Shown here: positions 21,886 to 38,278 of the stretch, in pieces
Layout: the number at the start of each line of letters is the position of its first letter
Numbering within the stretch: the stretch's first letter is position 1
NCBI GenBank assembly: GCA_045430305.1
Contig: JAILXW010000002.1
Coordinates: forward strand, 387,953 to 451,952
Source: Agarilytica sp.
GTDB taxonomy: Bacteria > Pseudomonadota > Gammaproteobacteria > Pseudomonadales > Cellvibrionaceae
Reading direction: 5' to 3'
Length of the DNA: 64,000 nucleotides
The notes under the pieces: model-generated
The model's input: the letters and a program-made list of their open reading frames with translations, nothing else
Told to the model about the DNA's origin: nothing
Database searches by the model: none
Position numbers and translations under genes: made by a program

Positions 21886-21895
21886 GGTGTGCCTC

Positions 21896-22220: not shown

Positions 22221-22250
22221 GACTTTGGTCTAAGCGTCGACCATAGTCGA
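22221..22250. promoter_or_regulatory. Two GAC-N4-GTC palindromic boxes (putative CrbR sites)
   Basis: GACtttgGTC (22221-22230) and tcGACcataGTCga (22237-22250), between the divergent DUF4212-actP and crbS genes. Confidence 0.65.
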
Positions 22251-22388
22251 AGCCGCAACCGCTATACTTGCTACTTAGAAGAGGTCTTCTCATTCCTTTC
22301 GGGAATGTATTCGCCCCAATATGGCATGTGGGGTAGATATAGAGCCGGGAACGCGCGCTAGAGACGAGCCTTTTATTGGAGCAGAATT

Positions 22389-25300
22389 ATGTCGATCACA
22401 ATCATTATCAGCGTTTTAGTGTTTTACTTGGCTAGTCTGTTTTGGGTGGCAAGTTATGCTGATAAACACCAGTTTGTTGAAGACTCTTGGACGAAAAGCC
22501 CTTGGATTTACGCCTTAGCTCTGGGCGTATATTGCACCTCATGGACATTTTATGGGTTAGTAGGCACTGCTGCCTCGAAGGGGTGGGGATTCTTGCCCAT
22601 TTTGTTGGGGCCATTTTTGTTGTTTGTATTTGGTCAGGGCCTTTTAAGTCGTATTTCAACACTATGTAAGCAAGAGAACGTACGCAGTATCGCGGATTTT
22701 TTTGCAGCGCGGTATGGAAAGCGCCGCGGCATAGCGACCTGCGTCACCCTGATTGTTCTAGTGTCGACTATTCCCTATATCGCTCTACAGATTAAAGCCG
22801 TAAGTGATTCTTTTTTATTAGTTTCGTCTGAGGGGGCCTACTCCCAAGAGCAGTTAGGTTTGTTCACTGCGGCAGCCATGATTGTGTTCGCACTGGTTTT
22901 TGGTGTGAAGCGCTTAGATACCTCGGGCTATCACGCGGGGTTGATGAGTGCTGTTGCGTTTGAGTCGGCAGTGAAGTTGCTGGCGTTATTTTGTTTGGCA
23001 ATATTCGCTTCGCTGCTAATTACCACGGCTACTTCTGAGGAAGTAGAAATCGCCTACGCGCCATTTCAAGCATCTATATTTGATTTTCGTTTTGTTATTG
23101 AAACGCTGGTTTCAGCGGCAGCTATCTTATGTTTGCCAAGAATGTTTCACGTCACCTTTGTTGAGAACCTTTCTGGTGAGCATTTAAGAAAAGCGCGATT
23201 TATCTTTCCTTTATATCTGGCTGTTATAGCGCTTTGTGTGTATATCGCGGCGCTTGCGGGTAACGCGGTGTTAAGTGGCGGCGATACTTCTGGTGATGCA
23301 TACGTCATCTTTTTGCCCTTGTCACAGGGGCATGAAGCGTTAAGTCTGCTTATATTAATTGGTGGTTTTTCTGCTGCCACAGCTATGATCATTGTTGCCT
23401 CAGTGACGTTAAGTCATATGTTAAGTAACGACGTGATTTTACCTGTTTTAATTCAGCGTAATACGCGCAAATCTATTTCTCCGGATTATTCGCGTTCGCT
23501 CATTTTAGCTAGGCGCCTCACGGTGATTCTCGTGATTGGTATGGCTTATGTGTATCAGCGATTACTCGCTGGTAACGCGGCCCTAACCGACATTGGTCTT
23601 ATCGCCTTTGCGCTGGTCGTACAGCTAGCCCCGCCTCTATTATTTGGTTTGTATTCCTTGCGCGGAAACGCAATAGCAACCTACGCGGGTTTAGCGTCTG
23701 GCTGTAGTATTTGGCTTCTCATGTTAATGCTGCCGTTATTATCTCGAGCAGGTGTTATCTCGGATGCTGTACTTGTCGAAGGTCTATTTGGTATTTCGTG
23801 GTTACGGCCTGAATATTTTCTTAATTTTACGTTTTCCGATGCATTTACCCGTGGTGTGGTATTGAGCTTAAGCGGCAATATTCTGGTGTACTGGCTGGTC
23901 GCCCAATGGGTTAAACCTAATTTATCTGATCGTATTCAAGCACGTGCTTTTCTAAATTTGTCTCGCGCTGAGCCCAGTACACATCATCATCAGGAATATA
24001 AATTAGATGATGTGAGCACCTTGCTAACTCAATTCTTAGGTGAATCTGTTACAGAAAAGTTAATCGCAAACCATAGAACTGGGGGCGAAGATAATGAAGC
24101 GGTAAACCCTGAGTTACTGAGTGCCGCTGAGCATGGGCTTTCTGGTATCGTCGGCGTTGCTTCTGCTCGTGCCATGTTGGCAACGTTAAAAACGGGTGAT
24201 CACCTAGGTGTAGAAGACGTTGTTAATATTTTTGAAGAAACAACTCGGGCGTTGCGTTTTAATCAAGATATGATCGTCGCCTCTTTTGAAAGTATTTCAT
24301 CTGCGATTAGTGTGGCGAATGAAGAGTTAAAGCTCGTTAGTTGGAATAGGCGCTATGAAGAAATGTTTGACTACCCGGAAGGTATGTTGCGTGTAGGTGC
24401 GCCGATTGACGAGTTAGTACGCTTCAATGCAGAGCGAGGTATGCTAGGTTCTGGCGCTGTCGACGACCATGTTCAAAAACGTTTGAATCACCTCAAATCC
24501 GGGAAGGGATACAGAGTGGTAAGAAATCACGGTGACTGTGTTATTGAAATAAAAGGAAGCCCTTTACCAAATGGTGGTTACGTTACGACCTACGACGACA
24601 TTAGCGAATTTATTAGTGCGCAAGACCAGTTGGAAAAAACCAACGAGTACCTGGAGCGGCGGGTAAAAGAGCGAACCCTAGAGTTGGAAGCCGCGCAAAA
24701 AGAAGCTGAAAATGTAAATCGAAGTAAATCTCGATTTTTGGCGTTAGCCTCACACGATATTCTTCAGCCTCTTAATGCTGCGAATCTTTACGTCAATATA
24801 TTATTGGAAAATGCTCGAAAAACGGGCGATAAAAATTATGAAACGGTTGAATATTTACATCAGGCAATTGAGTCTAGTGAAAGTATAATTTCTACCTTGT
24901 TAGAAATTTCAAAGTTAGATACAGGGGCTTTGAGTACAGAAATATGCGATACAGATTTACATCATATTTTATCTTCCTTGGTACATGAATTTGACGTTCA
25001 GCTAGAAAAAGATATTGAGCTCCGTTTTGTCGATACAAAACTGATGGTGCGGTCTGATCCACGATACCTCCGTCGAATTTTACAAAACTTTCTTTCTAAT
25101 GCAGTGAAATATACCCAGCGAGGAAAGATCTTGGTGGGGTGTAAGCGGCGTGGGCGGCAGGTAGAAATAGGCGTGATTGATACAGGCCCGGGCATTCATC
25201 CTGAAGAACAACAGCGTATTTTTGAAGATTTTTATCGATCAACATCTCAGCAGACCGTTAAAGGCTTAGGGTTGGGGTTAGCAGTTGCTACTCGCTTTTC

Positions 25301-25829
25301 TAATTTATTGGGCCATGATATTCGCAGTTCAAGCCGATTAGGGTGTGGCAGTAGTTTCTCTGTGTTGGTGCCTTTGGCTGTATCTAGGTCGCCTGATTTG
25401 CCGTCGTCTATTGGAATCGAAAACTTTTCTTCAAGTGTGCTCGCGGGGGCGCGCATCTTTTATTTAGATGATGATGGGCAAAATATCCATGCAATGGAAA
25501 CCCTATTGCGAGGTTGGGAATGTTTACCTACAACGGCCGATACGGTTAAAGAAGCGGTATTTCTGGCGCGCTCTGAAATCGAAAATACGCCAGATTTGTT
25601 GCTGATGGATTGGCAGCTAGACCAGGGGCAAGATGGAATATCTGCAGCAAAACAATTGCATGATATTTGGGGGGTGAATGTACCGACCTGCATTGTGTCG
25701 GCGTCTCAAGAACCCGATTTATCGAAATTGGTTGCTTCCCACGGGTTTGAGTTTTTACGTAAACCGATAAAGCCAGGGAAGTTACGGGCTATTCTCGAGC
25801 AAATGTTGACCCGATCAAGAAGCAGCTAA
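22389..25829 (+). CDS. crbS: Hybrid sensor kinase with SLC5-like transporter domain, PAS, histidine kinase and receiver (CrbS family)
   Basis: Multi-pass N-terminus with LALGVYCTSWTFYG; WNRRYEEMFDYP PAS; H-box ASHDILQPL; NAVKYT, DTGPGI, GLGLGL; receiver LLMDWQL. Confidence 0.9.
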   Translation: MSITIIISVLVFYLASLFWVASYADKHQFVEDSWTKSPWIYALALGVYCTSWTFYGLVGTAASKGWGFLPILLGPFLLFVFGQGLLSRISTLCKQENVRSIADFFAARYGKRRGIATCVTLIVLVSTIPYIALQIKAVSDSFLLVSSEGAYSQEQLGLFTAAAMIVFALVFGVKRLDTSGYHAGLMSAVAFESAVKLLALFCLAIFASLLITTATSEEVEIAYAPFQASIFDFRFVIETLVSAAAILCLPRMFHVTFVENLSGEHLRKARFIFPLYLAVIALCVYIAALAGNAVLSGGDTSGDAYVIFLPLSQGHEALSLLILIGGFSAATAMIIVASVTLSHMLSNDVILPVLIQRNTRKSISPDYSRSLILARRLTVILVIGMAYVYQRLLAGNAALTDIGLIAFALVVQLAPPLLFGLYSLRGNAIATYAGLASGCSIWLLMLMLPLLSRAGVISDAVLVEGLFGISWLRPEYFLNFTFSDAFTRGVVLSLSGNILVYWLVAQWVKPNLSDRIQARAFLNLSRAEPSTHHHQEYKLDDVSTLLTQFLGESVTEKLIANHRTGGEDNEAVNPELLSAAEHGLSGIVGVASARAMLATLKTGDHLGVEDVVNIFEETTRALRFNQDMIVASFESISSAISVANEELKLVSWNRRYEEMFDYPEGMLRVGAPIDELVRFNAERGMLGSGAVDDHVQKRLNHLKSGKGYRVVRNHGDCVIEIKGSPLPNGGYVTTYDDISEFISAQDQLEKTNEYLERRVKERTLELEAAQKEAENVNRSKSRFLALASHDILQPLNAANLYVNILLENARKTGDKNYETVEYLHQAIESSESIISTLLEISKLDTGALSTEICDTDLHHILSSLVHEFDVQLEKDIELRFVDTKLMVRSDPRYLRRILQNFLSNAVKYTQRGKILVGCKRRGRQVEIGVIDTGPGIHPEEQQRIFEDFYRSTSQQTVKGLGLGLAVATRFSNLLGHDIRSSSRLGCGSSFSVLVPLAVSRSPDLPSSIGIENFSSSVLAGARIFYLDDDGQNIHAMETLLRGWECLPTTADTVKEAVFLARSEIENTPDLLLMDWQLDQGQDGISAAKQLHDIWGVNVPTCIVSASQEPDLSKLVASHGFEFLRKPIKPGKLRAILEQMLTRSRSS

Positions 25830-25841
25830 ATGAAATAATAT

Positions 25842-26501
25842 TTATTTTTCTCCGGAAGCATCATCCGGGTGAAGGGCAATTTTGTTCAGTTCGATAACTG
25901 CTTGTGTTCTGTTTGTTACACCGAGCTTACGAAATATCGATGTGATATGCGCTTTAACGGTTGCTTCAGTCACGCCAATTTCAAAGGCAATTTGTTTATT
26001 AAGCCAGCCTTCTTTCAAAAAACATAATACGCGATATTGTTGTGGCGTCAGTGATGCAATTTTATTCGCGAGTGAGCGCTCTTCTTCGCTAATGGGGCGC
26101 AGTGTTGCGCGATATTTTTCGGGAATCCAGCGATTACCACCCAAAATACTTTCAATAGCTTCGAACATTTTATCTTGGCTTAACGATTTTGTTATGTAGC
26201 CTAAGGCGCCGTGTCCGATAGCGCGATTCACCATGGCTTGCTCTTCACTCGCCGATACAACAACAACAGGAATACTGGGGAACTGTTCGCGAATATTGAC
26301 TAATCCAAATAAATCTTGGCTACCCGGCATGTGTAAGTCGAGTAAAAGTAAATCAATATCGTCGTGATCTTGTATTTCTTGAAGGGTTTCGTTGAGATCT
26401 TGTGATTGGGTAATATTCGATTTTGGGTAGTTGTTTGTAATGACTTGCGTTAGGGCGGCGCGAAAAAGAGGGTGGTCATCGGCAATATGAAAATGGTACA
26501 T
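25842..26501 (-). CDS. crbR: LuxR/NarL-family response regulator (CrbR-like)
   Basis: ADDHPLFR, LLDLHMPG, LTPQQYRVL...LNKQIAFEIGVTEATVKAHITSIFRKLGV; adjacent to crbS and acs. Confidence 0.85.
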   Translation of the reverse strand: MYHFHIADDHPLFRAALTQVITNNYPKSNITQSQDLNETLQEIQDHDDIDLLLLDLHMPGSQDLFGLVNIREQFPSIPVVVVSASEEQAMVNRAIGHGALGYITKSLSQDKMFEAIESILGGNRWIPEKYRATLRPISEEERSLANKIASLTPQQYRVLCFLKEGWLNKQIAFEIGVTEATVKAHITSIFRKLGVTNRTQAVIELNKIALHPDDASGEK

Positions 26502-26696
26502 GACGAAACTCTCGTGTTTTTATTATTTGTCGAACTTAATTTCGTACTTCTTGTGGTAGTTTTGACGTCGTTTTTCGTTAAAACGTAAGGCCTTATACTG
26601 ACTAGCTCTTAAGGCATTTCTTATTGTTTACTTCCCTGCTAAACCTTATTTAAAGATACACTAGATCGCTAAATAATTCTCTGCTTATAACGTGAA

Positions 26697-26728
26697 AAGT
26701 GGCATTTAATATGAATTAAATGCCACTT
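26697..26728. terminator. 14-bp perfect inverted repeat after acs
   Basis: aagtggcatttaat-atga-attaaatgccactt. Confidence 0.65.
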
Positions 26729-26769
26729 ATTGTGTATGAAATTGTTTATATGCTCAGTATTGAAAATGT

Positions 26770-28728
26770 CTAACGGTTAAGTCTTCCGTCAATCAACTCT
26801 TTTACCACACTGGGGTCGGCCAGTGTTGATGTGTCTCCCAAGCTTGTATATTCGTTGGCGGCGATTTTTCGCAAAATGCGGCGCATGATTTTACCTGAGC
26901 GGGTTTTAGGTAAGCCATGTGTCCACTGTATGAGGTCTGGCGTTGCAACCGGGCCAAGTTCCTTACGAATACAATCGCGTACTTCTTTCGTCAACGCTTC
27001 ATCAGGCTCTGTACCTTGCGTGGGCGAAAGGTATATATAGATTGCCTCGCCTTTTAAATCATGTGGAAAACCAACGACTGCAGCTTCGGCGACGCTTGGG
27101 TGTGCAACTGTGGCGCTCTCAATTTCGGCCGTTCCTAATCGGTGACCGCTCACGTTTAATACATCGTCTACTCGGCCTGTAATCCAGTAGTCGCCATCTT
27201 CGTCGCGCTTCGAACCATCCCCGGTGAAGTACATGCCTTCGTGGGTCGAAAAATACGTATCAATAAAACGTTGGTGGTCGCCCCAAATGGTGCGCGCTTG
27301 CCCAGGCCAGGAATCTAATATCACCAGGTGCCCCGACGTAGCACCTTCTAAAATATCGCTGTTTTGATCTACGAGTTGTGGCTGAATACCAAAAAATGGC
27401 TTCATGGCGGCGCCGGGTTTTGGGTCGCAGGTACCGGGCATTGGGGTCATCATTTGGCCGCCCGTTTCGGTCTGCCACCACGTATCTACCACATGCATTT
27501 TTCCATCGCCAAATTCATCACGGTACCAGCGCCATACTTCAGGGTTAATGGGTTCGCCCACAGTGCCTAGCAAGCGTAAAGAGTCGCGCTTGCTAGATTT
27601 TAATGCGGTTTCTGGGTCTGTCAGCAGCATGCGAATAGCGGTTGGGGCAATATAGAATACCGTGACTTTGTGTTTATCAATGGTTTCGCCAAAACGACCG
27701 ATGTCAGGGAAATTGGGTACGCCTTCGAACATCATTGTCGTAGCGCCTGCCGCTAGCGGCCCATATACGATATAGGTGTGGCCGGTGATCCAGCCAATAT
27801 CGGCACCGCACCAGAAAACGTCATCTTCACGATAGTCAAAGCCATACCGAAATGTGGTTTGTGCGTAAGTAAGATAGCCGCCGGTTGCGTGTTGCAACCC
27901 TTTGGGTTTACCGGTTGACCCTGAGGTGTAAAGAATGAACAGAGGGTGCTCGGCCTCAAAAGCGGGTGCTTCGTGCTCGCTGCTTTGGCCATTTACAAGC
28001 TCGTGGTACCAGTAGTCGTGTTCAGCGTACCACGTGGCTTCACGATCGCTGTTTTCATTTTTGACCACGATAACGTGTTCTATGCTCTTGGTGTTGGTGT
28101 TGGTGTTGGGGTTTTGAAGCGCTTCGTCGACATTGTTTTTAAGGGGGATGGGTTTTTTACCGCGTGAACCAAAGTCGGCAGTGATGATTGTTTTTGCACC
28201 ACAGTTTTCAATCCGGTCTGCCAAGGCGTTGGCAGAAAAGCCACCAAACACTGCTGAATGAATTGCGCCAATACGTGCACAGGCAAGCATGGCGAAAGCA
28301 GCTTCGGGCACCATAGGCATATATAAAATCACGCGGTCTCCGGCTCCTACCCCTAGGCTTTCTAGCCCGTTGGCGAGCTTACACACTTCATCATGCAATT
28401 CTTGATAGGAAATTTTGCGACTTTGAGTGGGATCATCACCTTCCCAAATAATTGCTGTCTTATTGGCTTTTTCTGGCAAGTGTCGATCAACACAATTAAC
28501 GCAGGCGTTGAGTTTCCCGTCTTCAAACCAGCGAATTTTTAGGTCTTCTTTAGCGAAAGAAACATTCTTTATGTTTTTAAACTTTGTTTCCCATTCTAGT
28601 TCGTCCGCTTGTGACGCCCAAAATACTTCGTTGTCTTCTACCGATTCACGATACAAATCGGCATATGCTTTTGGTGTTAAAGCGTAAGGTGAATTGTTGT
28701 TTTCTGCGCTTTTAATTGAGTCAGTCAT
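26770..28728 (-). CDS. acs: Acetyl-CoA synthetase
   Basis: YTSGSTGKPKG, WWQTETGG, GRVDDVLNVSGHR, PKTRSGKIMRR; start likely ATG 28728. Confidence 0.95.
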   Translation of the reverse strand: MTDSIKSAENNNSPYALTPKAYADLYRESVEDNEVFWASQADELEWETKFKNIKNVSFAKEDLKIRWFEDGKLNACVNCVDRHLPEKANKTAIIWEGDDPTQSRKISYQELHDEVCKLANGLESLGVGAGDRVILYMPMVPEAAFAMLACARIGAIHSAVFGGFSANALADRIENCGAKTIITADFGSRGKKPIPLKNNVDEALQNPNTNTNTKSIEHVIVVKNENSDREATWYAEHDYWYHELVNGQSSEHEAPAFEAEHPLFILYTSGSTGKPKGLQHATGGYLTYAQTTFRYGFDYREDDVFWCGADIGWITGHTYIVYGPLAAGATTMMFEGVPNFPDIGRFGETIDKHKVTVFYIAPTAIRMLLTDPETALKSSKRDSLRLLGTVGEPINPEVWRWYRDEFGDGKMHVVDTWWQTETGGQMMTPMPGTCDPKPGAAMKPFFGIQPQLVDQNSDILEGATSGHLVILDSWPGQARTIWGDHQRFIDTYFSTHEGMYFTGDGSKRDEDGDYWITGRVDDVLNVSGHRLGTAEIESATVAHPSVAEAAVVGFPHDLKGEAIYIYLSPTQGTEPDEALTKEVRDCIRKELGPVATPDLIQWTHGLPKTRSGKIMRRILRKIAANEYTSLGDTSTLADPSVVKELIDGRLNR

Positions 28729-28796
28729 AGCGTGGGCCTCGTCAAACATAATTGTGATACAGCCACTTTCCCTTTTTCTTGTGCAATTGAAAATTA

Positions 28797-28840
28797 GACT
28801 TCCGTCGTGACTCGACTAAGGTCGATATTAGACCATTAGC
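28797..28840. promoter_or_regulatory. Three GAC-N4-GTC-type boxes at 17-bp period (putative CrbR sites)
   Basis: GACttccGTC (28797), tcGACtaagGTCga (28814), GACcattAGC (28831), between the divergent acs and porin genes. Confidence 0.65.
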
Positions 28841-28911
28841 TAATTTTCATGATCAGGCTAACTCTGCAAACTGGCGAACATAGAAACAAAAACTATCTCT
28901 GGAGGTGGTGT

Positions 28912-30087
28912 GTGAAAACAATAAATAAAATGACTGGGTGTGCTTTGGTTTTAACCGGTGCTATTTGCGCTGTTCCAAGTATGGCTGTTGACTTAGGTGA
29001 GTATGGTGGCACGTCTGTCGCTTTAAAAGGTTACGTGAAGTTTGATGCAATGATGTCTCAATACGACAGCGGCGCACTTCCCGCTAATGCCTGGTATCGT
29101 GACTTTTATGTGCCATCATTGACTCCCGTTGGTGATGACGATAGCAGTGAAAACACTGTGGTCGACATGCACGCACGTCAATCGCGTTTTGCCTTGGCGA
29201 CAAAAAGTGATGTTGATGGCACGGCCTTAAAAACGTATATCGAAATGGATTTTATGCTCACTTCAAACAGTAATGAGCGGGTTTCTAATTCTTATTCCCC
29301 GCGTTTGCGTCACGCTTTTTTGACCTATGGGAACTGGACGTATGGTCAAACCTGGTCGACTTTTATGAATGTTGGTGCATTACCTGAAACACTCGATTTT
29401 ATCGGCAACACAGACGCCAGTATCTTTGTTCGTCAATCAATGGTGCGTTATACCAATGGAGGTTTCCAGTTCGCTTTGGAAAACCCTGAAACCACCATTA
29501 CACCGTACGGTGGTGGTGGACGTATCGTGACCGACGACAATAGTGTGCCTGATGTGGTTGTTCGATATAACTACAGCAGCGATAGTTTTAAATTTACAGT
29601 TGCCGGCCTTGCTCGTCAGTTAGAGTACAACGATGCCGGTTCTGATATCGATGAATCCACCAGTGGCTTTGGTTTGAGTCTGTCGGGTTCTGTGATGCTG
29701 GGTAAAGACGATCTTAAGTTTGTGCTGAACACCGGTTCTGGCATGGGGCGCTACATCGGTTTGAATATCGCGAATGATGCAGTCATTAATGCCGATGGTG
29801 AGCTTGAAGCTATCGACTCAACAGGTGCAAGTTTAAGCTATCGCCACTGGTGGAATGATCAATGGCGCTCTACCGTAGTGTATTCGGCTATTAGCGTTGA
29901 TAACGATGAAGAGCTTACAGGAACTGCCGTGTCTAAGACCTCTTCAAGTCAGCGCATCAACTTACTCTATAGCCCTACAAAACGTTTAACGCTTGGCGGT
30001 GAACTTGCTTTTGCCTCGCGTGAGATTGAAAGTGGTGATGACGGTTCTATGACTCGCTTGCAATTTAGCGCCAAACTCGCCTTTTAA
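28912..30087 (+). CDS. DcaP-family outer-membrane porin
   Basis: GGAGG RBS before GTG 28912; signal peptide; GYVKFDAM, HARQSRF, PRLRHAF, GQTWSTFM, RQSMVRY; ends in LAF. Confidence 0.85.
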   Translation: MKTINKMTGCALVLTGAICAVPSMAVDLGEYGGTSVALKGYVKFDAMMSQYDSGALPANAWYRDFYVPSLTPVGDDDSSENTVVDMHARQSRFALATKSDVDGTALKTYIEMDFMLTSNSNERVSNSYSPRLRHAFLTYGNWTYGQTWSTFMNVGALPETLDFIGNTDASIFVRQSMVRYTNGGFQFALENPETTITPYGGGGRIVTDDNSVPDVVVRYNYSSDSFKFTVAGLARQLEYNDAGSDIDESTSGFGLSLSGSVMLGKDDLKFVLNTGSGMGRYIGLNIANDAVINADGELEAIDSTGASLSYRHWWNDQWRSTVVYSAISVDNDEELTGTAVSKTSSSQRINLLYSPTKRLTLGGELAFASREIESGDDGSMTRLQFSAKLAF

Positions 30088-30124
30088 ATATTTTCTCGAT
30101 TTAGTCTGCTGGCTGTCCGTTTAG

Positions 30125-30149
30125 CCCGAGCGCAAGCTCGGGTTTTTTT
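30125..30149 (+). terminator. Terminator after the porin gene
   Basis: cccgagc-GCAA-gctcggg followed by T7. Confidence 0.85.
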
Positions 30150-30433
30150 GTTTTTATTAACGAGATTGAGACACACCTATTTACAGTTAGGTAGGTTTAT
30201 TTGCAGGCTTTTGTGATAAAAAACCAACAAAAAAAGATTGTTATTTGATCTGTTAGGTGGGGTTTTGATCTCTGTGAGAAGGCTCAACAAAAAGTGAAAA
30301 TGGATTGTAAATTTTTCAACTTTGCTGCGCGACGTGAATCGTGATGGTTTAGGCGCCAAAACCTTAAAAGATAAATATTTGCGTCAAAAATTTCCATTTT
30401 AAATATCTGTTTGATTATTAAAGAAAAACCTAT

Positions 30434-30500
30434 GTCACATTTTGGATATATGTGACTTTCTTGTGATATTTGTCACTTTCAATTGCGACCTTTTGTCGCA
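30434..30500. promoter_or_regulatory. Palindrome cluster including a CRP-like site upstream of the multicopper oxidase
   Basis: gtcacat-N9-atgtgac (30434-30456), TGTGA-N6-TCACT (30462-30477), tgcgac-N5-gtcgca (30484-30500). Confidence 0.5.
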
Positions 30501-30638: not shown

Positions 30639-33600
30639 GTGGAGCTTCTTGATAAGATGTTACGAAAAAAAAGCCGAATCGGTTCTCGATTCGCATTGTG
30701 TACATGTGTATTAGTTTTAACTGCCTGTGGTGGCAGTGACAATGATTCAGACGACCCACTTACTCCTGAAGACTTGCCTGATGAGTCAGGGCTTCGCGAA
30801 GCGCAAACTGGCGAGATTCCTGAAGACGCAGAAAAGCCTGCGCACGGTGCTTTTGAAGGTGGCGATACAGAAGACGTCGAAGACGCTTCCGCAAATAACG
30901 TTGTCACCGAAGAGGAAGTTGAGGCTAGTGAGTCTGATGCCGGAAAATTCGGTGAAGCCGATGCAGCCTTAAACCGACGCTTTAATGTTCCAACAAATGG
31001 CGCCCCTTCTCCCTTATTTGGTGCGGCGCCCTTCGAGCAGCAATTATTACGTTTTGAAGAATTTGGCACTTCGGTATTGGCCGATGCCGATGTCGACCCT
31101 GATTCAGCCTTAAGCTTGCCGGTACCCGCGGCAGTAGATGGCTTTCCTGAATCAGAAGCGCTCGATACTTACTTAATGCAAGACATTTACCCCGAGCCAA
31201 CGCGTTGGGCAAATAATGTTGATACCAACCCATGGGAAACTTTGATTGAGGCGTACTTGGGGCGTAGTTTAGCTAGCCCTCCATTAGAAGGTCGTCCACC
31301 CGGTGAAGGATGGGCGCATCAGCGCTGGGAAGAGTTCTTCCCCGTGCAATATTTCAGCACGGCTCAAACGGGTGCACGTACTAACCGCGGTATGCGCGAT
31401 GTAAAACAAACCCACGGCTATGCAGTCGGTGAGTTTGCTGAAGGCGGTTTGTATCACAACACCACCGGTGCTGGTGATACATTCGACGGAACTACTGCCG
31501 GCATCGAAGTGAAGTTTCACCCTGATATGCCTGTGCAAGAACAAGAAACACTTTGGACTTTCGATGGAACATTCCCGCCGAAACTCCTTAAAGTACGCTA
31601 CGGCGAGCCGGTATTAATGCGTCACCACAATGCATTGCCTGTAGACGTCTCAGCCAATAAAGGGTTTGGGCTTCACACCATTACTACGCATGAACACAAC
31701 GGCCATAACCCAGCAGAAAGTGATGGTTATGCCAATGCCTTCTTCTTCCCTGGTCAATTTTACGATTACCGTTGGCCTGTAGCGCTCGCGGGGCATGACA
31801 GCATCAACACCGACGCGGAAGACCCTTTTGCGGCTTCCCCTAACGGTAGTGGTGGCACAACAAAGATTCCGGGTGACTGGCGTGAAACTATGAGTACGCA
31901 CTGGTTCCACGACCATATGCTCGATTTCACAGCGCAGAACGTTTACAAAGGTAATGCAGCGATGATGAACTATTACTCGGCGATTGACCGTGGTAATGAG
32001 GCCATCGACGACGGTGTTAACTTACGTCTTCCTTCTGGTACCGGGTTAGATTGGGGTAACCGCGACTACGACGTTAACTTACTTCTTGCAGAAAAAGCGT
32101 GGGACTCAGAAGGCCAGTTATGGTTTAACCCCTTCAATGAGAAAGGCTTTATCGGCGATGTGATGACGGTCAACTGGTTGTACAAACCTTATATGGATGT
32201 ACGTGCTCGTCGTTATCGTTTCCGTATTTTGAACGGTTCAGTATCACGTTACTTCAAGCTTGCTTTAGTGAACGAAGCAAATGAGCCAGTTCCATTTCAC
32301 TTGATTGCTAATGATGGCAACATCATGGAGCACGCGGTGTATATGGAAAACGGTCTGTTGCCAACAATCGGTATTGCAGAGCGCTACGATATCGTTATTG
32401 ATTTCGGTGACTTTGAAGCTGGCGACCGCTTTTACTTAGTTAACATGCTCCAGCACAAAAATGGTCAGGCGACGGATGAAGTGATTCCGCTTGCCGATAT
32501 TCTTGACGGCACATACAACCCGCAAATGGTGGATGATGATACCGACGGCAGCTTTGACCGTTGGACAGCGGACCCCGTTGTTGGCACCTTTATGGAATTC
32601 CGTGTACAAGAGCACAACACGCGAGATACCAGTATGGACCCCGCAGAGTACGTTGAGTTTATCGATGGCAACGAAACTCGCCCAGGCAAGAAAATGATTC
32701 CACTTCGCCGCCCGACGGAAGAAGAGTTGCGCACTGCACTTCACCGTACGTTTGAATTTGAACGTCAAGCGACAGACGAAGCACCATGGGTTATCGAAAC
32801 TGACGGTGGAAAAGGTTTCAATATGGATCCTCGTCGTGTATCTGCGGCACCTGAGAAAAACTCGGGCGGCTTGGAAGTTTGGCGATTGGTGAACTCAGGT
32901 ACTTGGTCTCACCCGATTCACATTCACTTTGAAGAGGGTATTATTCTTCGTCGTGATGGTAAGGCGCCACCCGAGCACGAAAAGTGGGCGCGTAAAGATG
33001 TATACCGTCTAGGGCCTCAAGAAGATTCTGGCAACATGGTAGAAATCGCACTGCGCTTCCGTGAGTTTGCCGGTACCTTTATGGAGCATTGCCACAATAC
33101 TCAGCACGAAGACCACGCGATGCTTTTGCGTTGGGATATTGAAAACCCAGGTGAAACTTTGGTGATGCCTGCTCCCATTCCTTCGTGGGATGGCGTGAGC
33201 TACGTCGATACTTACGCGCTACCTACTTTCCGTACTGGTGATGCAGTGGGTCAATACGGTCCTGATCTTGAAGACGAAGCCGTTGAGATTTGGTTACAAG
33301 GTATGGAAATCGAACAAGTCGACTTGGTTGACCTAGAAATCGGTGATGCATTGAACCCGACAGAAGACGAACGCTCTGTAGGTAAGATTCCATTGCGTAC
33401 GGCTATCAATATCGATGCAGACGGAAATGAAACTACCGTCTACTTCGTGCTTCACGATATCTCAGACCAGGAGTTGGCGGAAGAAATGGGTATCGCGTGG
33501 GCAGGTGCATTGGCGCCGCTAGTAACAGCTACTGATACTGATCCACATCCGGCAGTTTCTGAAGCAACTTACGATGCAGCAACAGACACGTTCACGTTTA

Positions 33601-34562
33601 CTGGTGATTTACCTAACCCTGTGATTCGTCCTTTCCCTGGCGCTGCCAATGAGTTTGTTGGCTTGGATGATTACGTTGATAACGCTCCAGCGCAAAGTGC
33701 AGATAATGATTACTCACCACTTCGTCGTGTAGTGATCGGTGGTAAAACGGTAATCGTGAACGCTTTCTATGTTCAATGGGGTGATGAAGACTACGAACGC
33801 ATCCGAATTGATGAAAATTGTGATCCGACTGACCCGAATACTTTCCCTGATGATCCGCCCAATACAACCTGTATGTATAACGGCGAACAATGGGCGGGTA
33901 ATACTGGGCATGCATTGGAAATCAACACGACTGATGCAAATCCTTATATTCGCATGAAACTGCACAAGTCATGGACTGATGGCGGTGATTACCTTCCTTA
34001 CTACATTGTGGTGGATTCTTTCCCTGCAGGACCTGCGAATGCGATGGGCGTGACATATGTGCCTAAGCACGAGCACTTAGGTTTGGCCGCTGTACCGCTT
34101 GTGCAGTTTTTGCCACCAGCACCGCTTAGCACGAATTACCCTCCAACAGATACGAATTCCGCATCGGGCGGTGTTGATCTAACCAACCAGCTGAGTGGCG
34201 GTGGCCCTCTGGGTGGTCAGATTGGTTTGCCTTCATATTTTATGCCAGAAGACGACTACAGCCCAATGTGGCACATCGGCTTTGCATGGTGGGATCTTGA
34301 CGGTGGCGCAACGGTTGATGACATTGAAGTTGTGAGAGGTTTAGAAGAGCTTAAGCATTTGCGTGCTGAAGGTAAGATAAATATCCAAGAGTGGCCTGGA
34401 GCTGCACCATCGCACTTCAATGGCGCAACAGAAGACAACTACAACTTTACGAATACTAATTCGCCTCACGTTGTAAACTGTCCAACACCGGTTACTATTG
34501 ACTTTGCGGTACACAAAGCGCGCTTAAACTCCAAAAATGGTGGTGTTACTAGCGACGACTAA
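30639..34562 (+). CDS. Large lipoprotein multicopper oxidase (CotA/bilirubin oxidase-like, resembling Mn(II)-oxidising MCOs); start may be ATG 30657
   Basis: LTA-C lipobox; Cu motifs THEHNGH, WFHDH, HPIHIH, HCHNTQHEDHAM; acidic N-terminal linker; about 440 extra C-terminal residues. Confidence 0.9.
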   Translation: MELLDKMLRKKSRIGSRFALCTCVLVLTACGGSDNDSDDPLTPEDLPDESGLREAQTGEIPEDAEKPAHGAFEGGDTEDVEDASANNVVTEEEVEASESDAGKFGEADAALNRRFNVPTNGAPSPLFGAAPFEQQLLRFEEFGTSVLADADVDPDSALSLPVPAAVDGFPESEALDTYLMQDIYPEPTRWANNVDTNPWETLIEAYLGRSLASPPLEGRPPGEGWAHQRWEEFFPVQYFSTAQTGARTNRGMRDVKQTHGYAVGEFAEGGLYHNTTGAGDTFDGTTAGIEVKFHPDMPVQEQETLWTFDGTFPPKLLKVRYGEPVLMRHHNALPVDVSANKGFGLHTITTHEHNGHNPAESDGYANAFFFPGQFYDYRWPVALAGHDSINTDAEDPFAASPNGSGGTTKIPGDWRETMSTHWFHDHMLDFTAQNVYKGNAAMMNYYSAIDRGNEAIDDGVNLRLPSGTGLDWGNRDYDVNLLLAEKAWDSEGQLWFNPFNEKGFIGDVMTVNWLYKPYMDVRARRYRFRILNGSVSRYFKLALVNEANEPVPFHLIANDGNIMEHAVYMENGLLPTIGIAERYDIVIDFGDFEAGDRFYLVNMLQHKNGQATDEVIPLADILDGTYNPQMVDDDTDGSFDRWTADPVVGTFMEFRVQEHNTRDTSMDPAEYVEFIDGNETRPGKKMIPLRRPTEEELRTALHRTFEFERQATDEAPWVIETDGGKGFNMDPRRVSAAPEKNSGGLEVWRLVNSGTWSHPIHIHFEEGIILRRDGKAPPEHEKWARKDVYRLGPQEDSGNMVEIALRFREFAGTFMEHCHNTQHEDHAMLLRWDIENPGETLVMPAPIPSWDGVSYVDTYALPTFRTGDAVGQYGPDLEDEAVEIWLQGMEIEQVDLVDLEIGDALNPTEDERSVGKIPLRTAINIDADGNETTVYFVLHDISDQELAEEMGIAWAGALAPLVTATDTDPHPAVSEATYDAATDTFTFTGDLPNPVIRPFPGAANEFVGLDDYVDNAPAQSADNDYSPLRRVVIGGKTVIVNAFYVQWGDEDYERIRIDENCDPTDPNTFPDDPPNTTCMYNGEQWAGNTGHALEINTTDANPYIRMKLHKSWTDGGDYLPYYIVVDSFPAGPANAMGVTYVPKHEHLGLAAVPLVQFLPPAPLSTNYPPTDTNSASGGVDLTNQLSGGGPLGGQIGLPSYFMPEDDYSPMWHIGFAWWDLDGGATVDDIEVVRGLEELKHLRAEGKINIQEWPGAAPSHFNGATEDNYNFTNTNSPHVVNCPTPVTIDFAVHKARLNSKNGGVTSDD

Positions 34563-34610: not shown

Positions 34611-34649
34611 AAAATCACGGTCTACTAGAGTAGGCCGTGATTTTTTTTT
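34611..34649 (+). terminator. Strong terminator between the MCO and SCO-fusion genes
   Basis: aaaatcacggtctac-taga-gtaggccgtgatttt followed by a T run, directly before the GAGGAG RBS. Confidence 0.75.
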
Positions 34650-34663
34650 AGAGGAGCAAAAGC

Positions 34664-35989
34664 ATGGGGAAAACACTTGTAAAAGTGCATACCTTAATCA
34701 TCTTGTCGATCGCTATGTTTGTTTGTGTAAATACACACGCAAATTGGGGGGCGAACTATTTTCCAAATACAGCTTTAACTACGCACGAGGGCAGGCAGGT
34801 AAAGTTCTTTGATGATTTGTTAAAAGACAAAATTGTGGTGGTGAACTTTATATACACTACATGCCCAGATGTGTGTCCGCTCGAAACTGCTCAGTTGGTC
34901 AAAGTGCAAGAGATTTTGGGTGATCGTTTGGGAAAAGATATCTTTTTCTACTCGATTACAATTGATCCAGAACATGATTCTGTCGAGGTGCTAAAAAAAT
35001 ATCGTGAGCAATTTGGCGCGAAATGGGATTTTCACACAGGTAAGCGTACCGAGATTAAACATTTACGAAAAAAGCTTGGCTTGTATATTGATGGTGCCGA
35101 TGACGGGCCGAATAAAAATAATCACAATGTAAGCATGATTATTGGTAATCAAAAAACTGGCCGTTGGATGAAACGCTCACCTTTCGAAAACCCTTATGTG
35201 CTGGCAGATCAAATTGGCAATTGGTTAGATGGTTGGAAGTCGCCACAAAAAGTTAAAGATTATGCCAACGCACCGAAGCTTAGAAATATGTCAAATGGTG
35301 AACCGCTATTCCGTACTCGTTGTGCCTCTTGCCATTCCGTGAGTGGCGTACAAGAACCCAATGCTATTGGCCCCGATTTGGTGGGGGTGACACAACGCCG
35401 CGACAAACAATGGTTGATTCGTTGGCTGCAAGCGCCAGATAAAATGATTGCAGAAAAAGACCCGATTGCAATTGCTTTGTTGAAGCAGTGGAAAAATTTA
35501 CCGATGCCCAATTTGCGCCTCAACAAAAAAGAAGCGCTGGACTTGCTGGACTACCTTGAAAGCTTAAACTCAGAAAACGTGGGCGGAGCAAAAGTAGACC
35601 AAAAACAAATATCAAAACAAGCAGACAAGCTTGCCGTTATGAATGCGTGGGTCAGAGAGGCGCACCCGAATGCGACAGTGAATGCAGGTTACATGACCCT
35701 TATAAATGCAGGAGGGGCAGACGTAGAAATTGCTTCGGCGTCATCTAAAGCGTTTGAAAAGGTAGAGTTTCACGAAATGGCCATGGTTGACGGCATGATG
35801 GAAATGCGCGAACTGAAAGGTTTAATCATTGCTTCAGGTGATCAGTTAAAGTTCGAGCCCGGTGGTAAGCACTTGATGATGAAAGAGCCAAAACAAGCCA
35901 TTAAAGCGGGTCAGGTTATCGACATCGTGCTGACTTTCAAAGACGGTAGCCAGCAAACGCTTAGTGTAAAAGTTAAAAAGGATATTTAA
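34664..35989 (+). CDS. SCO/SenC - cytochrome c - PCuAC copper chaperone triple fusion
   Basis: CPDVC (SCO CxxxC) with distal His in HNVS; CASCH heme motif and LPMPNL; AWVREAHP...EFHEMAMVDGMMEM...PGGKHLMM (PCuAC). Confidence 0.88.
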   Translation: MGKTLVKVHTLIILSIAMFVCVNTHANWGANYFPNTALTTHEGRQVKFFDDLLKDKIVVVNFIYTTCPDVCPLETAQLVKVQEILGDRLGKDIFFYSITIDPEHDSVEVLKKYREQFGAKWDFHTGKRTEIKHLRKKLGLYIDGADDGPNKNNHNVSMIIGNQKTGRWMKRSPFENPYVLADQIGNWLDGWKSPQKVKDYANAPKLRNMSNGEPLFRTRCASCHSVSGVQEPNAIGPDLVGVTQRRDKQWLIRWLQAPDKMIAEKDPIAIALLKQWKNLPMPNLRLNKKEALDLLDYLESLNSENVGGAKVDQKQISKQADKLAVMNAWVREAHPNATVNAGYMTLINAGGADVEIASASSKAFEKVEFHEMAMVDGMMEMRELKGLIIASGDQLKFEPGGKHLMMKEPKQAIKAGQVIDIVLTFKDGSQQTLSVKVKKDI

Positions 35990-36243: not shown

Positions 36244-37134
36244 ATGCCCTTCAATATTACAGCACCGCAGGTGATAAACCCTTTTCACATTCCCAATAGT
36301 TTTAAATACTCTAATGCAATGGCTGACTGGGCTTTCTACGACGTTGGCGCGCTGAATGTTGCTGAGTTTAATTATTTGGTGAACGAGCAAAGTATTGAAG
36401 GTTCCGTGCTTGTTGCATTACCTTCTGACGAAAAAAACTTTGGCATAATCAAATATCGAGATTTCGCGGAGTTAAAAGCGGGCAGTGGTAAGCCTCTGCA
36501 ACGTTTATCCATTGCCGGGGTTGGCAGTTCTGACGTAGGGGCTGCAGCATTTGCACGTACGCTTGCCAACCATTATCAAGAACCTGTAGGCGCCATCGTG
36601 GCGGGTTACGGGGTTGCTGACATTTTGCAAGAAGGGCTTGGAGGGTGGTTTGTCTTAGGTGGCTTAAATCGCGCGATGTCGATGTTTGAGCAAACTATGA
36701 TTCAGCCGTGGAAGGGTAGCAGCTCCCACATTGATACGGCGTCAACCCTATCTGGCGTCACGGCAAAAAGCCCAGACACCGAAACTTTATTGAATATTCT
36801 TAATGACCCCGCACGCGATTTAAAATCGATAGCGGGTCATTCTAAAGGTTGTTTGAGTATTGCCTTGGCACTGCAAACGCTTGAAAAAGAAGGCTCGACT
36901 CAAGCAATCGGTAAGGCCAAGGCGTTAGAGGTAATCACTGTGGGTTCCGTGGTTAACTTGCCCGAGGGTTATGAGAATGTACGCCAATACATCGGCGACA
37001 TAGATTGGTTTGGCGGATTGAACTCAAGGGCGAATGTTGAACGTATAACAGTAAAAGGCGCATGGCATCACCTCAATACGCGCTTTCCATATCACCTCGA
37101 CCTAGTAGAGGTTCTACAAAACTCGACACAATAA
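36244..37134 (+). CDS. Uncharacterised protein with alpha/beta-hydrolase-like GHSKG motif
   Basis: IAGHSKGCL (GxSxG), upstream Gly-rich AGVGSS, downstream D (IGDIDWFG) and H (AWHHL); AGGAG RBS. Confidence 0.65.
   Translation: MPFNITAPQVINPFHIPNSFKYSNAMADWAFYDVGALNVAEFNYLVNEQSIEGSVLVALPSDEKNFGIIKYRDFAELKAGSGKPLQRLSIAGVGSSDVGAAAFARTLANHYQEPVGAIVAGYGVADILQEGLGGWFVLGGLNRAMSMFEQTMIQPWKGSSSHIDTASTLSGVTAKSPDTETLLNILNDPARDLKSIAGHSKGCLSIALALQTLEKEGSTQAIGKAKALEVITVGSVVNLPEGYENVRQYIGDIDWFGGLNSRANVERITVKGAWHHLNTRFPYHLDLVEVLQNSTQ

Positions 37135-38201: not shown

Positions 38202-38278
<77 letters not shown>

What the first reader, a model, noticed from the sequence alone, without database searches (positions are those of the whole stretch)
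30639..34562. 1307-aa lipoprotein multicopper oxidase: candidate manganese oxidase
Seen: all four Cu-binding motifs with a Met axial ligand, a non-standard first motif (HEHNGH rather than HWHG), a lipobox and strong acidity. From memory, very large MCOs beside a Sco-cytochrome c gene are typified by Pseudomonas putida McoA and Leptothrix MofA, which are linked to Mn(II) oxidation. Inference: a surface-anchored Mn or other metal oxidase in a lineage where this may not be reported.
Basis: partly seen in the sequence, partly recalled or inferred. Interest (0 to 1): 0.68.

Follow-up and report, generated by a model that had tools for sequence, protein, structure and literature searches.

The report
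McoA-type multicopper oxidase, marine variant
This gene encodes a large lipid-anchored copper oxidase from the same family as McoA, one of the enzymes Pseudomonas putida uses to oxidise manganese; here it carries an uncharacterised tail domain and sits next to a three-in-one copper-chaperone gene, so it is a credible but untested manganese oxidase of marine bacteria.

Summary
The ORF is real; its likely start is the ATG at 30657, giving 1301 aa. It has a lipobox (LTAC, Cys24), a pI of 4.4, and all four copper motifs with an axial Met.

The catalytic core (residues ~108-860) is 57-62% identical to Pseudomonas McoA. I confirmed that orthologue by matching published GB-1 mcoA primers. The core is unrelated to MnxG.

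As in Pseudomonas, the next gene encodes a Sco-cytochrome c protein. Here it also carries a PCuAC domain. This gene pairing recurs in about 60 of 80 related loci across many phyla.

The window protein differs from McoA at both ends:
- It has a lipoprotein signal followed by an acidic linker.
- Its C-terminal 440 aa is a DUF7482 region. AlphaFold models it confidently (pLDDT 92.7), but it has no PDB fold match.

DUF7482 is rare. It is also fused to MnxG-type oxidases, and those genes too are followed by Sco, PCuAC and cytochrome c genes.

Best reading: an outer-membrane-tethered McoA-family oxidase that is copper-loaded in the periplasm by its neighbour, with Mn(II) as the probable substrate. 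Substrate and surface exposure are untested. It is a new variant of a known kind, of moderate interest.

The parts
30462..30500 (+). Two adjacent palindromes upstream of the oxidase gene. One is CRP/FNR-like, TGTGATATTTGTCACT (30462-30477). The other is TGCGAC-N5-GTCGCA (30484-30500). They are a candidate operator or activator region.
   Evidence: The same pair lies upstream of the orthologue in the Agarilytica MAGs L002/L006, and the second palindrome also in L001. No sigma-54 -24/-12 match was found within 2 mismatches.
30657..34562 (+). McoA-family multicopper oxidase gene (1301 aa plus stop).
30657..30728 (+). Sec-type lipoprotein signal peptide with lipobox LTAC (Cys24). Gly is at position +2.
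   Evidence: Lipoboxes are also present in the nearest relatives L001-L004, L006 and L014.
30729..30977 (+). Acidic, low-complexity linker (residues 25-107), probably a flexible tether.
   Evidence: 26 D+E in the first 100 residues. PT-rich or acidic linkers occupy the same place in relatives. The modelled part has pLDDT <50.
30978..33236 (+). Conserved catalytic core (residues 108-860): a family-specific N-terminal extension followed by three cupredoxin domains of the bilirubin-oxidase/CotA type.
   Evidence: Pfam Cu-oxidase_2/_3. PDB bilirubin oxidase E 1e-34. Foldseek top hits are BOD/CotA. 187 of 748 positions are invariant across 57 proteins.
31689..31706 (+). Copper motif 1, HEHNGH (H345, H347; H350 is also invariant).
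31899..31916 (+). Copper motif 2, HWFHDH (H418, H420).
32910..32927 (+). Copper motif 3, HPIHIH (H752, H755, H757).
33087..33122 (+). Copper motif 4, HCHNTQHEDHAM (H811, C812, H813, H817, axial M822).
33237..34559 (+). C-terminal DUF7482 region (residues ~861-1301), an add-on domain with no solved structural relative.
34611..34649 (+). Intercistronic hairpin (15-bp stem) followed by a T-run. It resembles an intrinsic terminator and ends 15 nt before the chaperone gene's ATG.
   Evidence: Hairpins at the same place, with different sequences, occur in L001-L004, L006, L011, L014, L028, L062 and L077; a T-run follows them in most of the marine loci.
34664..35989 (+). Sco1/SenC - cytochrome c - PCuAC triple-fusion protein (441 aa) with an N-terminal signal or anchor. 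It is the predicted periplasmic copper-insertion partner of the oxidase. Domains: Sco 34775-35140 (CPDVC 34862-34876); cytochrome c 35285-35566 (CASCH 35321-35335); PCuAC 35636-35959 (H-x-M...H-x-M 35771-35878).
   Evidence: The gene lies directly downstream of the oxidase in about 60 of 80 related loci.

Best explanation
The gene encodes a member of the McoA family of large three-domain multicopper oxidases.

Shown:
- It has a complete type 1 (His2-Cys-Met) copper site and a complete trinuclear copper-ligand set.
- It shares with P. putida McoA a family-specific N-terminal extension.
- It is followed by the family's hallmark neighbour, a Sco-cytochrome c gene.

Inferred mechanism:
1. The apo-protein is exported unfolded by Sec, since it has a lipoprotein signal and no Tat motif.
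2. It is lipidated at Cys24 and sorted to the outer membrane (Gly at +2). It hangs there on an acidic linker of about 80 residues.
3. Its four coppers are inserted in the periplasm by the product of the next gene. PCuAC captures Cu(I), Sco (CxxxC + His) hands it on, and the c-type haem keeps the Sco thiols and copper reduced.
4. The holo-enzyme takes single electrons from Mn(II)/Mn(III) at the type 1 site and reduces O2 to water at the trinuclear cluster, producing Mn oxides at the cell envelope.
5. The DUF7482 tail is an exchangeable accessory module. Other family members carry Ig/cadherin-like, dockerin-like or no tails at this position. It more likely serves anchoring, matrix or mineral contact than catalysis.
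For: Family membership:
- 57% identity over 833 columns to P. putida II-2.
- 62% over the core to the Pseudomonas sp. S37 protein. The S37 gene is bracketed by published GB-1 mcoA primers: an exact 19-mer 544 bp upstream, and primers spanning the start and stop codons.
- All Cu ligands are invariant in 57/57 family members.

Synteny:
- An Sco-cytochrome c gene lies immediately downstream in about 60 of 80 loci, from Gammaproteobacteria, Planctomycetota, Myxococcota, Acidobacteriota, Verrucomicrobiota and Nitrospirota.
- The mcoA-SCO1/SenC pair is the only part of the GB-1 mcoA operon conserved in other Pseudomonas (PMC11409713).

Function of the relative:
- A GB-1 strain expressing only McoA oxidises Mn(II) and Mn(III) (PMC5906577).

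Parallel system:
- MnxG-type oxidases that carry DUF7482 (P0147, whose best PDB hit is MnxG 9bxa at E 7e-102; and P0196) are followed by separate SCO1, PCuAC and cytochrome c genes. A further DUF7482 protein has the same three genes after it.

Precedent:
- A dedicated periplasmic CxxxC chaperone is needed for MCO maturation in Rhodobacter (CutF/CutO, PMC7558416).

Export:
- The signal is a lipobox without a twin-arginine motif.
Against: - No activity data exist for this protein or any member of its DUF7482 clade.
- The evidence for McoA itself is genetic; as far as the held literature shows, it has not been characterised as a purified enzyme.
- MCOs are promiscuous, and the closest solved structures are bilirubin oxidase and CotA.
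- The family occurs in many lineages where Mn oxidation has not been reported, including MAGs labelled Desulfuromonadales and Syntrophobacteraceae.
- The sigma-54/MnxR regulation reported for Pseudomonas mcoA has no counterpart upstream here.
- A terminator-like hairpin separates the oxidase and chaperone genes, so co-transcription is not shown.
- The AF2 model of the catalytic core was poor (pLDDT 30-60 over much of it), so the substrate pocket could not be examined.
- Outer-membrane sorting relies on the E. coli +2 rule.
Confidence: 0.55

Rival explanations
1. It is a general laccase or bilirubin-oxidase-type phenol oxidase. It would act on organic substrates, for example algal polyphenols in an alga-associated, polysaccharide-degrading gammaproteobacterium. 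Any Mn oxidation would be a side activity.
For: The best solved-structure matches are bilirubin oxidase (E 1e-34), CotA and phenoxazinone synthase. The best NCBIfam hit is PhsA, far below its cut-off. The nearest relatives are Agarilytica, Paraglaciecola and Colwellia.
Against: Identity to those enzymes is only about 17-25%, against 57-62% to McoA. The family has its own invariant extension and motif variant. No aromatic-catabolism genes lie nearby.
Confidence: 0.17
2. It is a copper-homeostasis cuprous oxidase (CueO/PcoA-like), and the neighbouring Sco/PCuAC protein is part of periplasmic copper handling rather than enzyme maturation.
For: The neighbour is built entirely of copper-chaperone domains. 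There is a weak CueO profile hit (94.8 bits).
Against: The CueO hit is far below the 525-bit cut-off. The signal is Sec/lipoprotein rather than Tat. No cue/cop/cus regulator, P-type ATPase or RND genes lie in the 64 kb window. No Met-rich insert is visible in the sequence.
Confidence: 0.1
3. It is an Fe(II) oxidase, or an oxidase wired to the respiratory chain. The cytochrome c domain of the neighbour would be a redox partner of the oxidase (donor or acceptor) rather than a chaperone accessory, giving energy conservation from metal oxidation.
For: A c-type cytochrome accompanies the Sco/PCuAC genes in all three arrangements seen, although CuA assembly systems do not need one. Cytochrome c maturation mutants abolish Mn oxidation in GB-1, and electron flow to the respiratory chain has been proposed (as cited in PMC13631088). 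The protein is very acidic, which suits cation substrates.
Against: The oxidase keeps a full O2-reducing trinuclear site, so it needs no external acceptor. The cytochrome is physically fused to Sco in most family loci, which fits an intramolecular redox role. Nothing distinguishes Fe(II) from Mn(II) in the sequence.
Confidence: 0.13

Closest known systems
McoA of Pseudomonas putida GB-1 (PputGB1_2665) and its Pseudomonas orthologues
   Same: The ~750-aa core is homologous end to end (57-62% identity), including the N-terminal extension, the HEHNGH variant of motif 1 and the axial Met. An Sco-cytochrome c gene lies directly downstream. The C-terminal tail is in both cases an add-on beyond the third cupredoxin domain.
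   Different: The Pseudomonas tail is about 256 aa with a Big_9/cadherin-like domain; here it is about 440 aa of DUF7482. Pseudomonas has an ordinary signal peptide; here there is a lipobox plus an acidic linker. The Pseudomonas Sco-cytochrome c lacks PCuAC. In the NJ tree the two form separate clades. Pseudomonas mcoA has a sigma-54 promoter (PMC11930936 supplement); none is seen here.
MnxG-type manganese oxidases (Bacillus MnxG, PDB 9bxa; MnxG-like proteins P0147/P0196)
   Same: Some MnxG-like proteins end in a homologous DUF7482 domain (E 3e-23) and are followed by SCO1, PCuAC and cytochrome c genes. Like the McoA family, they carry interchangeable C-terminal surface-type modules, including Big_9/cadherin-like domains.
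   Different: The catalytic parts are different MCO architectures with no significant pairwise similarity (E 0.075). The window protein does not hit NCBIfam NF041487 (MnxG). Only 4 of the top 120 MnxG-like proteins carry DUF7482.
Bilirubin oxidase / CotA / phenoxazinone synthase (three-domain MCOs with solved structures)
   Same: Same three-cupredoxin fold and copper-ligand pattern. These are the best PDB sequence and fold matches. CotA is also reported to oxidise Mn(II) in vitro (PMC3618234, abstract listed).
   Different: They are about 500-600 aa and 17-25% identical. They lack the N-terminal extension, lipid anchor and DUF7482 tail, and have no Sco partner.
Sco / PCuAC copper-chaperone systems of cytochrome oxidase CuA assembly, and CutF for the Rhodobacter MCO CutO
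   Same: The neighbour has the Sco CxxxC motif and the PCuAC H(M)x10Mx21HxM motif. CutF sets a precedent for a dedicated periplasmic chaperone needed by an MCO.
   Different: Here Sco, a c-type cytochrome and PCuAC are fused in one polypeptide and paired with an MCO rather than with a haem-copper oxidase. The client and the direction of copper transfer are inferred.

Membership tests
McoA family (P. putida GB-1 PputGB1_2665 type) | End-to-end homology of the catalytic core, including the family-specific N-terminal extension | tested here: met
   57% identity over 833 columns to P. putida II-2. 62% over 733 aligned positions to the primer-verified mcoA orthologue in L077.
McoA family (P. putida GB-1 PputGB1_2665 type) | Four copper motifs with the HEHNGH form of motif 1 and an axial Met | tested here: met
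   All ligands invariant in 57/57 sequences, including Pseudomonas McoA.
McoA family (P. putida GB-1 PputGB1_2665 type) | SCO1/SenC(-cytochrome c) gene immediately downstream | tested here: met
   Window 34664-35989. Conserved in about 60 of 80 loci. Described for GB-1, MS-1 and DSV-1 in PMC11409713.
McoA family (P. putida GB-1 PputGB1_2665 type) | C-terminal Big_9/cadherin-like tail of about 256 aa | tested here: not met
   The window tail is DUF7482. Pseudomonas tails hit Big_9/Cadherin_4/Cadherin_5. This places the window in a sister clade.
McoA family (P. putida GB-1 PputGB1_2665 type) | Sigma-54 promoter / MnxR-dependent regulation | tested here: not met
   No TGGCAC-N5-TTGCW match within 2 mismatches in the 570 bp upstream; other palindromes are present instead. 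This was a pattern scan only, so it is weak evidence.
McoA family (P. putida GB-1 PputGB1_2665 type) | Supports Mn(II)/Mn(III) oxidation in vivo | not testable with these tools
   Needs a knockout or complementation with a leucoberbelin blue assay.
Three-domain multicopper oxidase (laccase/CotA/bilirubin oxidase superfamily) | Cupredoxin domains with HxH, HxH, HxxHxH and HCHxxxHxxxxM ligands, and homology to solved members | tested here: met
MnxG-type manganese oxidase | Six-domain MnxG-like catalytic architecture | tested here: not met
   No significant similarity of the core to the MnxG homologue P0147 (E 0.075). No hit to NF041487 at E<=0.01. MnxG 9bxa is not among the 60 best PDB matches shown.
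MofA (Leptothrix discophora) | Homology to MofA and a mofA-mofB-mofC gene arrangement | not tested
The window has no FKBP-type gene next to the oxidase.
CueO-type cuprous oxidase | Score above the curated CueO model cut-off; Tat signal; Met-rich insert | tested here: not met
   NF008205 scores 94.8 bits against a cut-off of 525. The signal is Sec/lipoprotein with no RR motif.
Bacterial lipoprotein | Lipobox [LVI][ASTVI][GAS]C at the end of a signal peptide | tested here: met
   LTAC, Cys24. Conserved in the nearest relatives. Lipidation and sorting themselves were not tested.
Sco1/SenC and PCuAC copper chaperones (neighbour gene) | Sco CxxxC motif; CxxCH haem site; PCuAC H(M)x10Mx21HxM motif; Pfam scores above cut-off | tested here: met
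   PF02630 82.6 bits, PF00034 32.8 bits, PF04314 109.7 bits. Motifs CPDVC 67-71, CASCH 220-224, HEM...HLM 370-405.

The most novel reading that the evidence does not exclude
DUF7482 may be a previously unrecognised, new-fold module dedicated to manganese-oxidase-type multicopper oxidases. It has been recruited independently by McoA-type and MnxG-type enzymes, each time alongside an Sco + PCuAC + cytochrome c maturation set. It could bind Mn(III) or nucleate and hold the Mn oxide product at the cell surface. If so, the oxidase-DUF7482-Sco/PCuAC/cytochrome c cassette would be a portable, horizontally spread Mn-biomineralisation kit. It would be common in marine bacteria, and the cytochrome part would explain why cytochrome c maturation genes are required for Mn oxidation.
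Probability: 0.25. Interest if true: 0.7.

Novelty: new variant of a known kind. Interest (0 to 1): 0.45.

Why it matters
Bacterial Mn oxidation shapes trace-metal and carbon cycling, but only a handful of oxidases, mostly from Pseudomonas, Bacillus and Leptothrix, have any experimental support.

This locus shows that the McoA family extends well beyond Pseudomonas. At least 120 database proteins, 60% or more identical to this one and all carrying DUF7482, belong to the clade. Members come from marine Gammaproteobacteria and several other phyla, and they are annotated only as generic multicopper oxidases.

The locus also gives three testable handles:
- A candidate Mn oxidase for marine heterotrophs.
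- A self-contained copper-insertion partner (Sco-cytochrome c-PCuAC). It could explain the old observation that cytochrome c maturation mutants lose Mn oxidation.
- A rare, confidently folded domain of unknown fold that links the two otherwise unrelated Mn-oxidase families.

If the enzyme instead proves to be a phenol or iron oxidase, the conserved oxidase-chaperone pairing would still be a useful model for how Sec-exported multicopper oxidases acquire copper.

Tried and rejected
- Source organism: the exact protein is not on record in the contig index, and no sequencing run could be listed. The organism can only be placed near Agarilytica (84% core identity, shared flanking genes).
- The Geszvain 2013 primary paper is not held. 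McoA identity was therefore established through primers printed in PMC11930936 and PMC5906577.
- A literature search for DUF7482 found nothing.
- No paper in the held library links Mn oxidation with an MCO in Alteromonadales or Cellvibrionales.
- The full-length AF2 model (residues 102-1301) was too poor in the catalytic core (mean pLDDT 66) to inspect the substrate site or domain packing.
- MnxG-type membership is rejected.
- CueO and PhsA assignments are rejected; both are far below the curated cut-offs.
- The DcaP-like porin, acs and two-component genes upstream are not part of the system. They are absent from related loci and separated by a terminator at 30123-30149.
- The 296-aa hypothetical protein and the TudS/DUF1722 gene downstream are shared only with Agarilytica, so they are not part of the module.
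- The sigma-54 promoter search was negative.


Full report
**1. What is in the sequence**

The ORF at 30639-34562 on the + strand is real. The mechanical ORF starts at a GTG. The identical database protein is 1301 aa (P0001), which corresponds to the ATG at 30657. All residue numbers below use that start.

The N-terminus, MLRKKSRIGSRFALCTCVLVLTAC|GGSDND, is a Sec-type lipoprotein signal with lipobox LTAC (Cys24) and no twin-arginine motif. An acidic, low-complexity stretch follows, up to about residue 107. The whole protein has a pI of 4.4, with 214 D+E against 92 K+R.

The four copper motifs are:
- HEHNGH, residues 345-350
- HWFHDH, residues 415-420
- HPIHIH, residues 752-757
- HCHNTQHEDHAM, residues 811-822, with axial Met822

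In an alignment of the window protein with 56 relatives from many phyla, every ligand is invariant, and 187 of 748 core positions are invariant. The unusual HEHNGH motif is a hallmark of the whole family.

**2. Domain anatomy**

Pfam finds Cu-oxidase_2, a sub-threshold Cu-oxidase_3, and DUF7482 (PF24298) in the C-terminal third. No curated NCBIfam model reaches its cut-off: PhsA scores 103 bits against 950, and CueO 95 against 525.

The closest solved structures by sequence are bilirubin oxidase (E 1e-34) and CotA. Foldseek on the full-length model returns the same enzymes.

The full-length AlphaFold model was weak in the catalytic part (mean pLDDT 66), so I did not interpret the substrate pocket.

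**3. The neighbour**

A 441-aa ORF (34664-35989) starts 101 bp downstream. It combines SCO1/SenC, a c-type cytochrome and PCuAC. Its functional motifs are intact: CPDVC, CASCH and HEM...HLM.

Between the two genes lies a strong hairpin with a 15-bp stem followed by nine T's (34611-34649). Relatives have a hairpin at the same position with unrelated sequence, followed by a T-run in most of the marine loci. This points to a conserved role, either partial termination or mRNA 3'-end protection. Co-transcription is therefore not shown.

**4. Relatives**

The protein search returned 3827 hits among the 8000 candidates scored. The best 120 are all 60% or more identical, mostly about 1200-1350 aa, and all carry PF24298. 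Where they have a name, it is a generic multicopper oxidase name.

A scan of one genome per species found 581 relatives, of which 80 loci were kept. They fall into two groups:
- Full-length matches come from marine Gammaproteobacteria: Agarilytica (about 80%), Paraglaciecola, Colwellia, Parashewanella, Kangiellaceae, Wenzhouxiangella and Methylomonas. They also come from MAGs labelled Verrucomicrobiota, Myxococcota, Acidobacteriota and Desulfuromonadales.
- Matches limited to the core (56-62% identity) come from many Pseudomonas species, Planctomycetota and others.

The core is constant, but the tail after copper motif 4 varies:
- about 58-70 aa in the shortest forms
- about 150-190 aa
- about 256 aa in Pseudomonas (Big_9/cadherin-like)
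- about 430-520 aa (DUF7482)
- 600-885 aa in Planctomycetota (one has a dockerin hit)

In a neighbour-joining tree of the core, the DUF7482-bearing proteins form one clade. The window sits next to Agarilytica, and the Pseudomonas proteins form another clade. The taxonomic mix inside the DUF7482 clade suggests horizontal transfer.

**5. Is the Pseudomonas relative really McoA?**

The primary paper was not held, so I used primers printed in later papers.
- The GB-1 mcoA promoter primer 2665L.F matches Pseudomonas sp. S37 (L077) exactly, 544 bp upstream of the oxidase ORF. The authors describe a 534-bp promoter fragment.
- The deletion primers span that ORF's start codon and its last codons plus the stop (ATCAGCATCAAGTAA).
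- The two flanking check primers match with 3 and 1 mismatches on either side.

L077:1927-5322 (1131 aa) is therefore an mcoA orthologue.

The window protein is 57% identical to the P. putida II-2 orthologue over 833 columns. It is 62% identical to the S37 orthologue over 733 aligned core positions.

The literature confirms that mcoA is followed by a SCO1/SenC gene. It also reports that this pair is the only conserved part of the putative mcoA operon (PMC11409713).

The evidence that McoA oxidises Mn is genetic: a GB-1 strain expressing only McoA oxidises Mn(II) and Mn(III) (PMC5906577).

**6. Conservation of the pairing**

tblastn with the window's neighbour against the 80 loci finds an Sco-cytochrome c gene directly after the oxidase in about 60 of them, across phyla. 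Most exceptions are short contigs or members of the P. fluorescens group.

The PCuAC domain is fused on in nearly all members of the DUF7482 clade and absent from the short-tail clades. The other window neighbours are not conserved with the oxidase, or are shared only with Agarilytica: the DcaP-like porin, acs, the two-component system, the 296-aa hypothetical protein and TudS/DUF1722.

**7. The DUF7482 tail**

A profile-free search of 1.84 billion representatives with the tail alone found only 69 proteins at E <= 1e-3. Many are fragments of the same family. Four of the others are informative.

- P0147 (2091 aa) has Bacillus MnxG as its only PDB hit (9bxa, E 7e-102). It weakly hits NCBIfam's MnxG model. 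It ends in a DUF7482 domain that aligns with the window's tail from the VYFVLHD segment to the VVNCPTP segment (E 3e-23). Its catalytic part shows no significant similarity to the window's (E 0.075).
- P0147 and its Roseibacillus relative P0196 are each followed by separate SCO1, PCuAC and cytochrome c (or cytochrome-like) genes.
- P0143, another DUF7482 protein on a low-coverage contig, has the same three genes after it.
- P0142 (1955 aa) combines a two-domain-laccase-like N-terminus with two DUF7482 copies.

Among the 120 best MnxG-like proteins, only four carry DUF7482. Others carry Big_9/cadherin-like, CARDB, DUF11, RTX or SLH modules. This is the same kind of interchangeable surface-type tail seen in the McoA family.

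I read this as evidence that DUF7482 is an accessory module (anchoring, matrix or mineral contact) rather than a catalytic one. It also suggests that McoA-type and MnxG-type enzymes share a working context and a maturation system. This is inference from domain and gene co-occurrence.

**8. Mechanism proposed**

Shown:
- A complete MCO ligand set.
- McoA-family membership.
- A lipobox.
- A neighbouring protein with intact Sco, haem c and PCuAC motifs.
- Conserved gene pairing.

Inferred:
- The protein is exported by Sec as an apo-protein and lipidated.
- It is sorted to the outer membrane because Gly is at +2 (the E. coli rule), and tethered by the acidic linker.
- Periplasmic copper passes from PCuAC to Sco and then to the oxidase, with the haem domain supplying reducing equivalents. 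CutF/CutO in Rhodobacter is a precedent for a dedicated MCO chaperone (PMC7558416).
- The holo-enzyme oxidises Mn(II)/Mn(III) one electron at a time at the type 1 copper and reduces O2 at the trinuclear cluster.
- The requirement of cytochrome c maturation genes for Mn oxidation in GB-1 (as cited in PMC13631088) could reflect the haem requirement of these Sco-cytochrome c partners. I did not find this stated in the held papers.

**9. Rivals**

Three rivals remain open:
- a general phenol or bilirubin oxidase
- a CueO-like cuprous oxidase
- an Fe(II) oxidase, or an oxidase coupled to the respiratory chain through the cytochrome

The first is weakened by the much closer relationship to McoA. The second is weakened by sub-threshold profile scores, the Sec signal and the absence of copper-resistance genes in the window. 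The third cannot be separated from Mn oxidation by sequence.

I put membership in the McoA family at about 0.9. I put Mn as the physiological substrate at roughly 0.5.

**10. Novelty and verdict**

The family and its Sco partner are known from Pseudomonas. Homologues of McoA have already been counted across bacteria (bioRxiv 10.1101/2022.11.10.515945).

New here, as far as the held library shows:
- The DUF7482-tailed clade, lipoprotein-anchored in its nearest members, with a triple-fusion chaperone.
- The finding that the same rare, new-fold tail and the same chaperone set also accompany MnxG-type enzymes.

This is a new variant of a known kind. It is of moderate interest, and its function remains to be tested experimentally.

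Noticed in passing
window 30432-30500: Three palindromic elements lie upstream of the oxidase: GTCACA-N11-TGTGAC (30432-30456), the CRP/FNR-like TGTGATATTTGTCACT (30462-30477), and TGCGAC-N5-GTCGCA (30484-30500). The last two recur upstream of the orthologue in the Agarilytica MAGs (L002, L006), and the last one also in L001. In L001 the gene just upstream ends in a Crp/Fnr-type helix-turn-helix. The regulator is unknown.
   Followed up: partly
window 34611-34649; L001-L004, L006, L011, L014, L028, L062, L077 intergenic regions: A stable hairpin sits between the oxidase stop and the Sco gene start in the window and in all ten related loci folded, with different sequences; a T-run follows it in most of the marine loci. 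It may be a partial terminator setting oxidase:chaperone stoichiometry, or a 3' stabiliser.
   Followed up: partly
window 7439-41545; L002 1-15030: The oxidase-chaperone pair lies in a variable stretch between secG/tRNA-Leu (7439-7523) and tRNA-Met (38202-38278)/rimP-nusA-infB. In the Agarilytica MAG the oxidase follows secG directly, so the window carries about 23 kb extra between them.
   Followed up: partly
window 7968-10988: A 1006-aa GGDEF-EAL protein has two periplasmic solute-binding domains and a weak phosphonate-binding hit. In P. putida GB-1 the putative mcoA operon includes a diguanylate cyclase/phosphodiesterase and a phosphonate-type binding protein (PMC11409713). The resemblance may be coincidental, since the gene is 20 kb away.
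   Followed up: no
window 17090-30087: This looks like an acetate-utilisation cluster. It holds a DEDDh exonuclease, a cNMP/CBS/DUF294 nucleotidyltransferase, a sodium:solute symporter, an NahK/ErcS-like hybrid kinase, an ErdR-like regulator, acetyl-CoA synthetase and a DcaP-like porin. It is not conserved with the oxidase in other loci.
   Followed up: no
L084 449-6316 (P0142): A 1955-aa protein has a two-domain-laccase-like N-terminus, two tandem DUF7482 regions and a C-terminal segment with a blue-copper-like C-x2-H-x4-M motif. It lies next to a DOMON-domain protein. This is a third MCO architecture using DUF7482.
   Followed up: partly
L085 5557-10133 (P0143): A DUF7482 protein on a 1x-coverage contig is followed by SCO1, PCuAC and cytochrome c genes. 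The short ORFs upstream, which have no Pfam hits, may be a frameshifted oxidase.
   Followed up: no
window 33237-34559: The DUF7482 region appears to contain an internal duplication. Two similar strand-strand-strand-helix units are centred on VYFVLHDISD..LAEEMG and YYIVVDSFPAG..NAMG. Three conserved cysteines (1054, 1071 and 1274 in the listing, which runs one residue below M1 = 30657 numbering) are also present in the MnxG-type fusion.
   Followed up: partly
L001 (JBLIMQ010000004.1): This contig is labelled Flavobacteriales but encodes an oxidase 78% identical to the window's, with a gammaproteobacterial-type lipoprotein signal. It is probably mis-binned or recently transferred.
   Followed up: no
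window 36244-37134: A 296-aa ORF has no Pfam or NCBIfam match. It is conserved (61%) only in the Agarilytica MAGs, between the chaperone gene and a TudS/DUF1722 gene.
   Followed up: no
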